Assembly: GCA_021463465.1 (NCBI GenBank) | Contig: JAJTYH010000002.1 | Span: 265,799 to 329,798, forward strand | From: a bacterium | GTDB taxonomy: Bacteria > Patescibacteriota > Dojkabacteria > SC72 | Length of the DNA stretch: 64,000 bases | Reading direction: 5' to 3' | Shown: positions 42,001 to 45,000 of the stretch, in pieces | How positions within the stretch are numbered: the first letter of the stretch is position 1 | Layout of the letters: each line of letters opens with the position of its first letter | Program-made: the position numbers

Positions 42001-45000
42001 CCTCAGAACAAGAAGTGCTAATGCATACTGAAGGGCACTCGATTCATTAACAGGAAAGTATTCACACGCTTCTTTGGCAACCACGCCAAAGATACTTTAA
42101 ACAGTCAGTGTAAAGCAATTCAGTTTTTCGCCTTAGTAGATACGCTCGCATCTGTTCAGGAGTAACATCCTTAATCTCCTTTTCGTATCTCATTGATGCA
42201 CTTGAGGCAATCTTCCCCAGCTCTGCGTCGCCCTCACGTGGCTCTTTACCCTGACTAATTCTTAAATAATCATCAAAAGAAAAGCTCGGATCTAAATACC
42301 CTTTTTTAACCATCGAATCGTAGTAGTGACTTAAATCACCCCTCCTATCTCTAACTAAATTATTATAAAAGATGCTTCCAGACTGCGGTTGCGCTATTAC
42401 ATTGGCATATTTTCCCTCAGGATCATCTATTTGACATTTGGCTTCTTTATTTGATTGCTCAATAAAAAAGTCTTCATAACTAATTTCATGAAAAGGAATT
42501 GAACTACTTAACAAAGTCCTCTTCAGCGTTTCAATGTAAGTCTCAAAGTTCTTTTGTTTTTTCATTTTTTCAAAGTTCATAATGAAACTAACTTAATTTA
42601 ATAATTTAGGCCGAACGGGAATCGAACCCGTAACTAAAGTTTTGGAGACTTTTGTTTTACCATTCAAACTACCGGCCCAGGTCGGTTGTTCAAACAGAAA
42701 ACGTATTTAGAACAAATGACCTCTCTAATTGTTAGAGGGTCGCCATTGTTCAAAATTTAACATGACAGTCATTTTCTTAATCAATTAATTTATTAACTCC
42801 CATTAATTGCTTAAATCGCACAAGGTTTGTTTGAACAGCTTTTCTCGCCCTATCGGTACCTGCAACAAGTATTTCTTTTGCTTCATCTGGCCTTGATTCA
42901 TAATACTTTCTTTTTTCACGAATTGGTTCTAGGAAACTGTCTAGTGCTTTGAAAAGTTTCTCTTTAACTTCAACATCACCTACAGCCCCATTCTTATATC
43001 TTTCTTTCAAATCCTTAACTTCCTCTACATCCCTGTTGAAGTTATCGTGATAAATAAAGACAGGATTACCTTTTACAGAACCTTTATCAGTAGATTTGAG
43101 CCTATTTGGATCAGTGTACATCGACATAACTTTTTTCTTGAGTGTCTCGCTATCATCTGAAAGCAGGATAGCATTATGTCCACTCTTACTCATTTTTTCT
43201 TTCCCGTCAGTACCTACTAAACGAGCAACTCGTCCTACAAGCCCTTCTGGAAGTGTAAATAAGTTGCCGTATGCATTATTAAAGTCCCGAGCAATTTCCC
43301 TAGCTTGTTCAATTACTGGTAGCTGATCTTCTCCTACTGGAACAACCGATGCATTAAACTGAAGAATGTCTGCTGCTTGTAAGATCGGATAACAAACAAA
43401 ACCTAGAGTAGGATCTATCCCCTTATACCTTATTTCATCCTTTACACTAGGGTTTCTCATTGCCCTTGCATGTGTGACCATGGTTAAAAAATAGCTGTAA
43501 AACTCTAAAGTCTCAGGTACTCCTGACTCCAGATAAATTGTGGACTTCTCAGGGTCAATGCCTGCAGCTAAATTATCCAAAAATACATCGTAAACGTTCT
43601 GATTAATTACCTCTGATTTCTCATAATAGTTTGCATAGGCGTGAACATTGGCAAGCAAGATATAGGTTTCGTACTCATCTTGCATCTTAACTCTATTTTC
43701 CAAAGTACCTACAAAGTGACCGATGTGAAGTTTTCCACTTGGGGTATCACCAGTAAGTATAATTTTCTTAACGCCAGTCTGTCTTTTCTCATTTGCCACC
43801 GTGATATCAGCGATAACATAATTATCACCGATTAATTTGAACAGGTCCATTTTTGAAACCTTAAGAGCGTAACCATCCTTTGCAATTCCGCAGATAACAG
43901 ATTGCATCTCTTCAACTTTTCTATCAACCAAAATTGTTAACGAAAACCGCTCCTGCAACTCATCTAAAATCGCGGGCGAAACCAAGCCTTGTTCGAAGCC
44001 AAGTCGCTCTAAATCTTTATCTTCAACGAAATTCAGGCTTTTACTATTGGATAGTCTCTTAATCTCCTTATTGATTACATTGCGATCATCCCTTCTTAGA
44101 ACAACCACATACTGATTATATTCATTTCGAAAAATCAATGTAGACATCCCCTCTGAGTATTTCATCCCTGTAACTGAAACCAGATCATCAATTGACCGCG
44201 ATTTCGCCGCTGTCTGATCAATCTCCTGGTATGAGATTCCTAACTTTTTAAGTTTTTCAACTATTTTTTGGTATGTAATCACTGTTTTTATACTAAATTT
44301 AAACCAAAAATCCCCACACAGTTAATATACTATCTTTTAGTATACCAACTGTATGGGGACGATGTGGATCGTGGTACCACCCCGGTTCATGTATGTATTG
44401 CTACAAACACCTTCTACTGACTCCTAAGACATCAGTGTGAGTCTTGATTACGCTACTCTTGCGGATTCCCTACTAAGTATTTCCTTTCAGGTCTCAGCTC
44501 CAGGGCCCATTCTCCCCATCAATGCTTTTATTCTTAAATTGTAGTTGATTATACCATATACACCCTTTTCCTGTGATATACTCAAGAAATGGCCAAAAGG
44601 ATTCTCCGAAAAATTTGGGATATTTTCTCATACTTTTTAGCTATTGCTTTCGTAATCTCTGCCACAGTTGTCGCCTATTTCTACGCCAATGGTTACCGTT
44701 TCAACCCGATTAATGGTGAAGTCAGGCAAACTGGAGTCTTAAACATCGAAACCGTACCTAACAGAGCAGAAATCTTCATAAACGGTAAAGATGCCGGAAA
44801 ATCACCAAAAGTTAGTGCAGCAGATGCAGGTGAAGCCTTTGTAAAGATCACCAAAGAAGGATATTTTGACTGGGAAAAAGGTGTTCCTGTAGTTGCTGAA
44901 AAGTCCACCACTATACAGCCTGTACTTTTCCTTCAGAGCCCCCAAACTGAAAGTGTCTATAGCGCGAAAGGCAAAGTTATACAACAATTTCAAAGCACAT

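What the first reader, a model, noticed from the sequence alone, without database searches (positions are those of the whole stretch)
42777..44282. TrpRS fused to an N-terminal YbaK/ProX-type trans-editing deacylase domain
The first ~165 aa align with YbaK-family deacylases: YVVVLRRDDRNVINKEIKRL, ERLGFEQGLVSP, and the xxGIAKDGYALKV core. The remainder is a normal TrpRS (HIGH, PVGEDQ, KMSKS). TrpRS is not known to need editing, and YbaK-like domains are normally free-standing or attached to ProRS. Here the ProRS at 51828..53537 appears to be the short bacterial type. The fusion could supply Cys-/Ala-tRNAPro-type editing in trans, or could proofread tRNATrp mischarging.
Basis: partly seen in the sequence, partly recalled or inferred. 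Interest (0 to 1): 0.6.

Follow-up and report, generated by a model that had tools for sequence, protein, structure and literature searches.

The report
TrpRS fused to Lys-less YbaK-like domain
A candidate-phyla-radiation bacterium makes its tryptophan-charging enzyme as one protein with an extra domain of the YbaK/ProRS-editing fold that lacks that fold's hallmark catalytic lysine; the fusion is real and widespread in this group, and its role (proofreading or only holding the tRNA end) is untested.

Summary
ORF 42777..44282 (minus strand, 501 aa) is one uninterrupted gene. Residues 1-170 adopt a YbaK/ProX/INS fold (Pfam PF04073 49 bits; AF2 pLDDT 94; Foldseek TM up to 0.87). Residues 172-501 are a canonical bacterial TrpRS. 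The fusion is not an artefact: 59 of the 120 closest TrpRS homologs, all CPR/Patescibacteria, carry it.

The superfamily's catalytic Lys is Ser here and is never Lys in the fused family. GXXXP is kept in this clade. The neighbouring ProRS has its own INS editing domain, so it is not a "short" type. YbaK equivalog scores are far below cutoff. A role serving ProRS is therefore unlikely.

The domain belongs to a distinct Lys-less clade that also has free-standing members. It recurs on TrpRS (at the N- or C-terminus, or in tandem) and on TyrRS, which points to a job tied to class Ic synthetases. I favour cis proofreading of tRNATrp under Trp scarcity (~0.4) over a non-catalytic tRNA-end binding role (~0.35).

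New context: a Trp T-box leader with an ultrashort Stem I lies upstream, a tRNATrp with an A73 discriminator lies immediately downstream, and the enzyme is Trp-free. The literature I could search mentions the fusion only in passing (Mukai 2017).

The parts
42777..44282 (-). Complete fusion gene, 501 aa with a GTG start: an INS/YbaK-fold N-domain plus a bacterial-type TrpRS
   Evidence: ORF; Pfam and NCBIfam matches; identical protein P0002 in NCBI and 58 fused homologs
43773..44282 (-). N-terminal INS/YbaK-superfamily domain (aa 1-170; Pfam tRNA_edit covers aa 29-149, i.e. 43836..44198)
   Evidence: PF04073 49 bits; profile vs PDB E 1e-19; AF2 pLDDT 93.7; Foldseek TM 0.76-0.87 to 1wdv, 1vki, 1dbu and 2cx5
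44142..44144 (-). Ser47, at the position of the superfamily's catalytic or substrate-anchoring Lys (YbaK K46, INS K279)
   Evidence: HMM alignments to APE2540, ProRS and YbaK; S40/A14/P5 and never K in 59 fusions; K is 100% in 83 classical representatives, versus P/S/A/G in 65 Lys-less ones
44085..44096 (-). RRDD motif (aa 63-66), the signature of the fused family (R64 and D66 invariant, R63 57 of 59)
   Evidence: classical members have x-[RP]-G-D at this position
43974..43988 (-). GXXXP loop (G99-L-V-S-P103). It is retained and invariant in the Dojkabacteria-type clade; the Pro is lost in most other Lys-less members
43917..43931 (-). LVDRK, containing the invariant Asp120. By my own knowledge of the ProRS sequence this is equivalent to E. 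coli ProRS INS D350
   Evidence: D120 is invariant in 59 of 59 fusions and 92-95% in both clades; alignment to ProRS 5znj
43764..43793 (-). Short basic linker (aa 164-173, NEKRQTGVKK) joining the two domains
   Evidence: pLDDT dips to 76-82 here in the full-length model; pTM 0.66 means the inter-domain orientation is not fixed
42780..43769 (-). Bacterial-type TrpRS catalytic and anticodon-binding body (aa 172-501): HIGH at 43716..43727, PVGEDQ at 43323..43340, KMSKS at 43182..43196. It contains no Trp residue
   Evidence: TIGR00233 262.6 bits; motifs; W-free
44352..44531 (-). T-box leader with a Trp specifier. The ultrashort Stem I (44502..44517) has the loop AGAA-UGG-G; the T-box sequence GGGGUGGUACCACG is at 44370..44383, with bulge UGGU
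   Evidence: RF00230 63.3 bits (GA 93), local E 1e-13, with 72 Stem I model positions replaced by 4 nt; conserved in L001, L002 and L092
44312..44358 (-). Intrinsic terminator hairpin (20 bp) followed by a U-tract. It overlaps the 3' strand of the antiterminator and forms the T-box expression platform
   Evidence: compensatory changes in L001 and L002
44548..44577 (-). Promoter-like site (ATCACA-18-TATAAT with an upstream TG) ahead of the T-box leader
   Evidence: This is a consensus match only, and the region's hit count is not above that of shuffled sequence
42607..42678 (-). tRNATrp(CCA) with an A73 discriminator and G1.U72, and no encoded CCA. It lies 98 nt downstream of the fusion gene's stop
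   Evidence: ARAGORN; Rfam alignment shows discriminator A; orthologous A73 tRNA follows the fusion gene in L001, L002 and L003

Best explanation
This is the working, tryptophan-starvation-regulated TrpRS of a Dojkabacteria/WS6-like CPR bacterium. It has acquired an accessory N-terminal domain of the INS/YbaK aminoacyl-tRNA-deacylase fold.

Shown: it is one gene; the fold assignment is secure; the domain belongs to a distinct Lys-less clade of the INS superfamily; that clade is recurrently fused to class Ic synthetases (TrpRS and TyrRS); the domain has been gained or lost many times within one tight TrpRS clade, so it is accessory rather than essential for aminoacylation; the gene sits behind a Trp T-box and encodes no Trp.

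Inferred mechanism: the domain is tethered by a ~10-residue basic linker next to the N-terminal Rossmann-fold strand that leads into the HIGH motif. From there it captures the 3' CCA-aminoacyl end of tRNATrp after charging and acts as a cis checkpoint. I think the most likely activity is hydrolysis of non-cognate products, namely the near-cognate aromatics Phe or Tyr, or D-Trp. These products become a risk when Trp is scarce.

The chemistry would not use the canonical Lys. It would rely on the conserved GXXXP backbone, Asp120, and possibly Arg63/Arg64. Arg64 is predicted to lie across the beta-hairpin from Ser47.

The domain is unlikely to serve ProRS.
For: Fold and family.

Pocket scaffold under selection: T48, G99, D120, G132 and G134 are invariant or nearly so. 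In the Dojkabacteria clade the GxExGLxSP loop and LRRDDRN are the most conserved blocks.

A Lys-less clade with free-standing ~150-aa members implies a function that does not depend on being an appendage.

Independent fusion geometries tie this fold to class Ic enzymes. N-terminal TrpRS fusions are numerous. P0135 is a TrpRS with the Lys-less domain at the C-terminus. P0007, P0008, P0041 and P0122 carry tandem domains. P0151 has the Lys-less domain on a bacterial TyrRS. P0182 and P0214 have Lys-bearing domains on archaeal-type TyrRS.

Some relatives add a B3/4 domain, the PheRS editing fold (P0022); free-standing B3/4 proteins are deacylases (PMC10018355).

Starvation logic: a Trp T-box and a Trp-free enzyme in 118 of 119 homologs. 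Human TrpRS mischarges Phe when Trp is depleted (PMC8942854). TrpRS, TyrRS and AspRS are the synthetases whose D-aminoacyl-tRNA products are the classical DTD substrates (PMC1807948).

Side-chain-independent catalysis has a precedent in the DTD-fold editing module (PMC4491819).
Against: The Lys that every characterized INS-superfamily member uses (PMC11286415) is absent from the whole fused family. In most of the Lys-less clade the Pro of GXXXP is lost as well, which is what a domain that has left catalysis would look like.

The conserved G99, D120 and G134 are equally conserved in classical members, so they may be structural only.

Tandem copies, and about 23 gain or loss events among 119 close homologs, suit a dispensable binding module as well as they suit an editing domain.

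The only studied TrpRS with an editing-like appendage, the Plasmodium AlaX-like domain, lacks the catalytic residues and was concluded to serve tRNA binding rather than editing (PMC3680381).

The full-length model does not fix the inter-domain geometry (pTM 0.66). I could not obtain model coordinates, so the Ser47/Arg64 adjacency is inferred only from the DSSP hairpin register.

No mischarging by a bacterial TrpRS is documented in the papers I read.
Confidence: 0.4

Rival explanations
1. The domain is a non-catalytic tRNA-binding appendage. An ex-editing fold has lost its chemistry and now only increases affinity for, or positions, the acceptor end of tRNATrp. It may widen acceptance to the A73 isoacceptor encoded next to the gene.
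For: The catalytic Lys is lost family-wide, and the GXXXP Pro is lost in most of the clade. The Plasmodium TrpRS AlaX-like domain is a precedent: its catalytic residues are mutated and it is needed for tRNA binding and aminoacylation (PMC3680381). The YbaK fold is reused in non-editing proteins such as SadB (9qzk) and 3mem. Tandem duplication and frequent loss fit this role. Several INS-family proteins read the discriminator base and prefer A73 (PMC11295145). An A73 tRNATrp follows the fusion gene in 3 of 4 Dojkabacteria-type genomes, and an A73 tRNATrp/TrpRS-A operon precedes it in Microgenomates.
Against: Free-standing Lys-less relatives exist; P0126 is not next to trpS, and an unattached domain that only binds tRNA has no obvious use. 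The GXXXP loop is among the best conserved segments in this clade. Unfused TrpRS of 70-80% identity evidently work without the domain. Fused genes also occur with a G73 tRNATrp or with no linked tRNATrp at all (L087, L089, L086, L088, L092).
Confidence: 0.35
2. The domain works in trans for ProRS and clears Cys-tRNAPro (like YbaK) or Ala-tRNAPro (like ProXp-ala). Its fusion to TrpRS would be incidental.
For: The best sequence matches are to the ProRS INS, YbaK and ProX structures. No separate YbaK gene lies in the 64-kb window. A ProRS INS does not clear Cys-tRNAPro (PMC11286415 introduction).
Against: The ProRS at 51828..53537 has its own INS. The YbaK equivalog score is 31-35 bits against a cutoff of 153. 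The Lys needed by YbaK, ProXp-ala and INS is missing. The same clade is fused to TrpRS or TyrRS in several geometries and never to ProRS among the hits examined. Only 64 kb of the genome was seen, so the absence of a YbaK gene means little.
Confidence: 0.07
3. The domain is a ligand- or amino-acid-sensing regulatory module. The old aminoacyl pocket binds free Trp, an analogue, or aminoacyl-AMP, and modulates TrpRS activity. This would be analogous to YbaK-fold domains in signalling proteins.
For: The YbaK-like N-domains of SadB and Maqu_0641 match the fold. The pocket glycines and Asp are conserved while the tRNA-phosphate-anchoring Lys is gone. The locus is clearly tuned to Trp supply (T-box, Trp-free enzyme).
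Against: There is no direct evidence. The T-box already provides regulation. Co-occurrence in some relatives with a B3/4 domain, another tRNA-end-handling fold, points to tRNA rather than a small-molecule ligand.
Confidence: 0.12
4. The fusion is an assembly or frameshift artefact that joins two separate genes.
For: None found.
Against: The ORF is continuous and its composition is uniform. The same junction (…KKR-ILTGDTPSG) appears in 59 homologs from independent assemblies and sources. Synteny is conserved in L001-L003.
Confidence: 0.01

Closest known systems
[quoted passage not shown]
   Same: The fold is the same (Foldseek TM 0.76-0.87) and the Pfam model matches above threshold. The GXXXP loop, the Thr after the Lys position, the Asp I equate with INS D350, and the Gly-rich strand are all present.
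   Different: The strictly conserved Lys is Ser, or S/A/P across the family. An RRDD motif replaces x-[RP]-G-D. The domain is fused to a class I TrpRS instead of being free-standing or inserted in ProRS. It does not reach any curated subfamily cutoff (YbaK_EbsC 31 bits vs 153). Activity is unknown.
N-terminal ProXp-ala-like domain fused to ProRS in lower eukaryotes (Plasmodium, Trypanosoma; PMC11286415)
   Same: An INS-superfamily domain is appended to the N-terminus of a synthetase through a linker, and in those organisms it acts as a cis or near-cis deacylase.
   Different: There the partner is the enzyme that makes the error (ProRS), and the Lys and GXXXP are intact. Here the partner is TrpRS, for which no editing is known, and the Lys is missing.
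[quoted passage not shown]
   Same: A TrpRS carries an N-terminal domain derived from a trans-editing family whose catalytic residues are altered. In Plasmodium the N-terminal region containing it is needed for tRNA binding and aminoacylation.
   Different: The fold is unrelated (AlaX vs INS/YbaK). That enzyme is a eukaryote-type TrpRS with a 72-residue linker, whereas this is a bacterial-type TrpRS with a ~10-residue linker. Here part of the pocket signature (GXXXP, Asp) is still conserved.
CPR bacterial-type TrpRS next to tRNATrp(A73)-ORF1-TrpRS-A operons (Mukai et al. 2017, PMC5370408)
   Same: The protein family is the same. Loci L004, L087 and L012 reproduce that operon with the fused TrpRS as its last gene. 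[quoted passage not shown]
   Different: The paper does not identify the fused part in the text I could search. The window's Dojkabacteria-type locus has no TrpRS-A or ORF1. Instead it has T-box, fusion gene, then a tRNATrp(A73) with a bacterial-like body.
T-box riboswitches with an ultrashort Stem I (actinobacterial ileS type; the type is from my own knowledge, Stem I variability from PMC7778990)
   Same: The specifier sits in the terminal loop of a truncated Stem I, and the T-box bulge is UGGN.
   Different: By my own knowledge the known ultrashort examples are translational. This one has an intrinsic terminator with a U-tract, so it is transcriptional, and it lies in a CPR genome.

Membership tests
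INS/YbaK superfamily (PF04073 tRNA_edit) | Sequence match to the family model above the curated threshold | tested here: met
   49.3 bits against a cutoff of 25.5, aa 29-149; the family profile scores E 1e-19 to 1e-12 against APE2540, the ProRS INS and YbaK
INS/YbaK superfamily (PF04073 tRNA_edit) | YbaK-type alpha/beta fold | tested here: met
   AF2 pLDDT 93.7; the top 37 Foldseek PDB hits are all YbaK/ProX/INS or YbaK-fold proteins, probability 1.0
INS/YbaK superfamily (PF04073 tRNA_edit) | Strictly conserved Lys (YbaK K46, INS K279, ProXp-ala K45), used by all characterized members (PMC11286415) | tested here: not met
   Ser47 aligns with the Lys; 0 of 59 fused homologs have Lys; 83 of 83 classical representatives have it
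INS/YbaK superfamily (PF04073 tRNA_edit) | GXXXP loop | tested here: met
   G99-L-V-S-P103 is invariant in the 8 Dojkabacteria-type sequences, but the Pro is kept in only 12 of 59 fused homologs overall
INS/YbaK superfamily (PF04073 tRNA_edit) | Hydrolysis of a mischarged aminoacyl-tRNA | not testable with these tools
   Requires deacylation assays
YbaK proper (Cys-tRNAPro deacylase, TIGR00011 / PRK10670) | Equivalog-level score | tested here: not met
   31.5-35 bits against a cutoff of 153.25
Bacterial tryptophanyl-tRNA synthetase (TIGR00233 trpS) | Equivalog score and the class I HIGH and KMSKS signatures | tested here: met
   262.6 bits against a cutoff of 176.75 over aa 172-495; HIGH at 186-189 and KMSKS at 363-367
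   569 aa with PF04073 at aa 269-381, 78.5 bits; also detected by the N-domain HMM
T-box leader (RF00230) | Covariance-model score at or above the gathering threshold | tested here: not met
   63.3 bits against GA 93; the deficit comes from 72 Stem I model positions replaced by 4 nt
T-box leader (RF00230) | T-box sequence with a UGGN bulge in an antiterminator that competes with a terminator; a specifier codon matching the downstream gene | tested here: met
   GGGGUGGUACCACG with an overlapping 20-bp terminator and U-tract; UGG at positions 2-4 from the 3' end of the Stem I loop; conserved in L001 and L002 with compensatory changes in the terminator
tRNATrp(A73)-ORF1-TrpRS-A operon (Mukai 2017) | An archaeal-type TrpRS-A and ORF1 adjacent to the A73 tRNATrp | tested here: not met
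   tblastn finds no TrpRS-A or ORF1 in the window; both are present in relatives L004, L087 and L012

The most novel reading that the evidence does not exclude
A Lys-independent branch of the INS fold is a dedicated proofreading system for the aromatic class Ic synthetases of CPR bacteria. TrpRS and TyrRS are textbook non-editing enzymes, so this would be their first cis-editing domain. It would clear Phe-, Tyr- or D-Trp-tRNATrp when Trp is limiting, by chemistry that does not use the canonical Lys. It might also read the discriminator base, and so treat the co-encoded A73 and G73 tRNATrp species differently.
Probability: 0.3. Interest if true: 0.85.

Novelty: new variant of a known kind. Interest (0 to 1): 0.6.

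Why it matters
TrpRS and TyrRS are regarded as synthetases that need no editing, and reviews describe INS-superfamily deacylases as single-domain proteins apart from the ProRS insertion.

A conserved, repeatedly evolved fusion of that fold to TrpRS and TyrRS raises two possibilities. Either class Ic enzymes in these reduced, nutrient-dependent bacteria face a mischarging problem that needs a checkpoint, or an editing fold has been converted into a tRNA-handling module. The first would extend the map of translational quality control and define a Lys-independent mechanism for this fold. The second would be a clean bacterial parallel to the apicomplexan TrpRS appendage.

The locus can be taken directly to experiment. 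It is one soluble-looking 501-aa protein, two natural tRNATrp substrates that differ at position 73, and a compact T-box.

Tried and rejected
1. A word-indexed search with the N-domain alone found only one relative. It was too divergent, so I used the full-length search and the exhaustive profile search instead.

2. I considered Arg64 as a relocated substitute for the lost Lys. It is attractive from the hairpin register, but x-R-G-D is also common in Lys-bearing members and I had no model coordinates. I kept it only as a weak inference.

3. I considered the T-box bulge UGGU as proof that the leader senses the A73 tRNATrp, and rejected it as decisive. TBDB reports U at this position in 46% of Trp T-boxes whose tRNA has G73 (PMC7778990), and 2 of 9 Chloroflexi trpS leaders here also have U.

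4. I tested whether the unknown ORFs after the tRNA correspond to Mukai's ORF1. BLASTP shows no similarity and there are no Pfam, NCBIfam or PDB hits.

5. I tested whether a free-standing Lys-less relative sits next to trpS. It does not for P0126.

6. I tested whether unfused CPR TrpRS loci hide a separate YbaK-like gene nearby. There is none within 8 kb in L006, L009 or L038.

The metagenome scans added only one new Dojkabacteria-type locus.

8. AFDB fold libraries were unavailable.

9. DTD absence in CPR, as support for a D-aminoacyl role, could not be tested. There was no literature hit, only 64 kb of genome was available, and the tblastn query used an E. coli Dtd sequence recalled from memory.
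Full report
**Observation**

The finding's coordinates hold one ORF on the minus strand, 42777..44282, 501 aa with a GTG start. Every quoted peptide is present.

Pfam places tRNA_edit (PF04073) at aa 29-149 (E 6e-13, 49.3 bits, cutoff 25.5) and tRNA-synt_1b at aa 174-451. NCBIfam's trpS equivalog scores 262.6 bits against a cutoff of 176.75 over aa 172-495.

A profile of 30 homologous N-domains matches solved structures of APE2540 (1e-19), the ProRS INS domain (3e-17) and YbaK (3e-13). An AlphaFold2 model of aa 1-174 is confident (pLDDT 93.7, pTM 0.88). 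Its 37 significant Foldseek matches in the PDB are all YbaK, ProX, INS or other YbaK-fold proteins (TM 0.76-0.87 for the best). The match is far beyond chance.

**Not an artefact**

GC content is the same in both halves (0.38 and 0.37). No stop or frameshift interrupts the frame, and there is no credible internal start at the junction.

An identical protein is in NCBI as 'tryptophan--tRNA ligase [bacterium]'. Of the 120 best full-length hits, 59 carry the same N-terminal domain with the same junction (…KKR-ILTGDTPSG). They come from NCBI, JGI, ENA and Logan assemblies named Dojkabacteria/WS6, Shapirobacteria, Microgenomates and Patescibacteria. The closest relatives (72-75% identity) are Dojkabacteria/WS6 and share the window's gene order.

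**What the N-domain is**

Reviews state that all characterized INS-superfamily members use a highly conserved Lys and a GXXXP loop (PMC11286415). In every HMM alignment that Lys (VKTLIV, AKTMIF, FKTLLV) falls opposite Ser47. Across the 59 fused homologs the position is S (40), A (14) or P (5), and never K.

In contrast, R64, D66, D120 and G132 are invariant, and R63, T48, G99 and G134 are nearly so.

An exhaustive profile search of 1.8 billion representatives found 6145 relatives. I aligned the best 150 and split them by the residue at position 47.
- The 83 Lys-bearing sequences have K47 at 100%, G99 at 100% and P103 at 99%.
- The 65 Lys-less sequences have P/S/A/G at position 47. They keep G99, D120 and G134, and mostly lose P103.

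The Lys-less sequences are the nearest relatives of the query. They include free-standing 147-168-aa proteins as well as fusions.

The window's own sub-clade keeps GXXXP. The segment GxExGLxSP is invariant in 8 Dojkabacteria-type sequences, as is LRRDDRN.

The domain is therefore a genuine member of the fold and of the Pfam family, but it fails the catalytic-Lys criterion and reaches no curated subfamily. YbaK_EbsC scores 31-35 bits against a cutoff of 153.

**Recurrent fusion to class Ic synthetases**

I found the following architectures:
- two tandem Lys-less domains followed by TrpRS (P0007, P0008, P0041, P0122);
- a B3/4 domain, a Lys-less domain, then TrpRS (P0022, also P0109 and P0155);
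- TrpRS with a C-terminal Lys-less domain (P0135);
- a Lys-less RRDD domain on a bacterial TyrRS with an S4 domain (P0151);
- Lys-bearing domains at either end of archaeal-type TyrRS (P0182, P0214);
- a Lys-bearing domain on an AspRS (P0229).

Several independent geometries on TrpRS and TyrRS argue that the fold does something for class Ic enzymes or their tRNAs.

On a neighbour-joining tree of the catalytic parts, fused and unfused TrpRS interleave (about 23 parsimony changes over 119 leaves, all within a clade ~70% or more identical). Unfused loci have no separate YbaK-like gene nearby. The domain is therefore accessory and has been gained or lost often.

**The ProRS argument**

The ProRS at 51828..53537 is 569 aa and contains its own tRNA_edit/INS insertion (aa 269-381, 78.5 bits). 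Together with the missing Lys and the class Ic fusion pattern, this makes a role in trans for ProRS unlikely (about 0.07).

**Surroundings**

Upstream of the gene lies a T-box leader (44352..44531, RF00230, 63.3 bits, local E 1e-13). It falls below Rfam's gathering score because 72 Stem I model positions are replaced by 4 nt.
- The truncated Stem I ends in the loop AGAA-UGG-G. This places a Trp codon at the canonical specifier position.
- The T-box sequence GGGGUGGUACCACG sits in an antiterminator whose 3' strand overlaps a 20-bp terminator with a U-tract (44312..44358).
- The leader is conserved in Dojkabacteria relatives, with compensatory changes in the terminator.

The fused gene is therefore a regulated, functional trpS that is induced by uncharged tRNATrp.

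The enzyme contains no Trp. About 4 Trp residues would be expected (P about 0.02), and 118 of 119 homologs are Trp-free. Mukai et al. noted the same trait for related bacteria (PMC5370408).

A tRNATrp(CCA) with an A73 discriminator lies 98 nt downstream of the stop (42607..42678). A second tRNATrp with the bacterial G73 is at 28065..28136. Bacteria normally use G73, and archaea and eukaryotes use A73 (PMC5370408).

The A73 tRNA follows the fusion gene in L001, L002 and L003 but not in L092.

In the Microgenomates loci L004, L087 and L012 the fused TrpRS closes an operon: tRNATrp(A73, archaeal-like), ORF1, then an archaeal-type TrpRS-A. In L087 a G73 tRNATrp lies between TrpRS-A and the fused gene. 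[quoted passage not shown]

The T-box bulge reads UGGU. That would pair with A73, but TBDB reports U in 46% of Trp T-boxes whose tRNA has G73 (PMC7778990). It does not single out the A73 species.

**Mechanism**

These points are shown:
- the fusion is real;
- the fold assignment is secure;
- the domain belongs to a Lys-less clade;
- that clade is associated with class Ic synthetases;
- the domain is accessory;
- expression is Trp-regulated.

The rest is inferred. The domain is tethered by about 10 basic residues to the N-terminal strand that leads into HIGH, so it lies near the site where the CCA end is charged. Its conserved GXXXP loop and Asp120 suggest that it still binds an aminoacyl-A76.

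I favour a cis checkpoint that hydrolyses non-cognate products under Trp scarcity (confidence about 0.4). Four observations from the literature make this plausible.
- Human TrpRS makes Phe-tRNATrp when Trp is depleted (PMC8942854).
- D-Trp-, D-Tyr- and D-Asp-tRNAs are the classical DTD substrates (PMC1807948).
- Some relatives add a B3/4 editing-type domain.
- Side-chain-independent hydrolysis has a precedent in the DTD-fold editing module (PMC4491819).

The main rival (about 0.35) is a non-catalytic acceptor-end binding module, as concluded for the Plasmodium TrpRS AlaX-like domain (PMC3680381). It is supported by the loss of both catalytic hallmarks across most of the clade, by tandem copies and by frequent loss. 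Such a module might be linked to handling the A73 isoacceptor, because several INS-family proteins read position 73 (PMC11295145).

**Novelty**

The sequences are public and carry precomputed Pfam labels. One paper noticed the fusion in passing. In the searchable library I found no paper that identifies the domain, describes the Lys-less clade or tests its function.

It is best described as a new variant of a known kind: an INS-fold domain with altered active-site signatures on an unexpected partner.

Interest is about 0.6. It would rise to about 0.85 if the domain proves to be a true cis-editing domain of a class Ic synthetase.

Noticed in passing
window 44312..44531 (-): A Trp T-box riboswitch with an ultrashort Stem I (specifier UGG in the terminal loop AGAAUGGG) is combined with an intrinsic terminator. 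It scores below Rfam's gathering threshold (63 vs 93 bits), so standard annotation would miss it. By my own knowledge, ultrashort Stem I T-boxes are otherwise known as translational actinobacterial ileS leaders, so a transcriptional one in a CPR genome is unusual.
   Followed up: partly
window 42607..42678 (-) and 28065..28136 (+): There are two tRNATrp(CCA) genes with different discriminators. The copy next to trpS has A73 (archaeal/eukaryal identity), a bacterial-like body, G1.U72 and no encoded CCA. The distal copy has G73, G1.U72 and an encoded CCA. The A73 orthologues in L001 and L002 do encode CCA. No TrpRS-A that might charge the A73 species is in the window.
   Followed up: partly
window 42062..42580 (-) and 41224..42084 (-): Two ORFs (172 and 286 aa) overlap by 23 nt directly after the A73 tRNATrp. 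They have no Pfam, NCBIfam or PDB match. They are conserved as a two-gene pair in Dojkabacteria locus L001 (E 3e-21 and 2e-38). L002 and L003 have a single 427-aa ORF at the same position with no significant similarity. The genes evolve very fast and their function is unknown.
   Followed up: partly
window 42777..44282 (-) and 119 homologs: The TrpRS, including its N-domain, contains no Trp codon, and 118 of 119 close homologs are also Trp-free (the window's background is 0.8% Trp). This suggests selection to keep TrpRS synthesis independent of Trp-tRNATrp supply. Mukai et al. 2017 noted the trait for related bacteria.
   Followed up: yes
window 51828..53537 (-): The ProRS is the full bacterial type with an INS editing insertion (aa 269-381), not a short type. 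A tRNAPro(CGG) lies nearby at 55505..55578.
   Followed up: yes
relatives P0022, P0109, P0155; P0007, P0008, P0041, P0122; P0135; P0151, P0182, P0214; P0229: CPR and other metagenomic synthetases carry stacked editing-type modules: B3/4 plus an INS-like domain plus TrpRS; two tandem INS-like domains plus TrpRS; TrpRS with a C-terminal INS-like domain; INS-like domains on bacterial and archaeal-type TyrRS; and AspRS with a C-terminal INS-like domain. TrpRS, TyrRS and AspRS are the three synthetases whose D-aminoacyl-tRNA products are the classical DTD substrates.
   Followed up: partly
L089 7278..7982 and 10590..11909: In the locus of the double-domain TrpRS (P0008), an Asp/Glu-racemase-family gene lies immediately upstream and a 439-aa PLP-dependent (PALP) gene lies downstream. 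This may bear on a D-amino-acid or Trp-metabolism link, or it may be coincidence.
   Followed up: no
L006 7790..7886: ARAGORN calls an odd 97-nt 'tRNA-Asn(att)' about 115 nt upstream of an unfused Patescibacteria TrpRS that is 73% identical to the window's enzyme. It could be an intron-containing or aberrant tRNA, or a false call.
   Followed up: no
L004 2733..3695 and 5084..5983; L087 5344..6303: The Microgenomates TrpRS-A operons carry ORF1 (319-320 aa). L004 also has a 299-aa ORF between TrpRS-A and the fused TrpRS. Neither has any family match.
   Followed up: no
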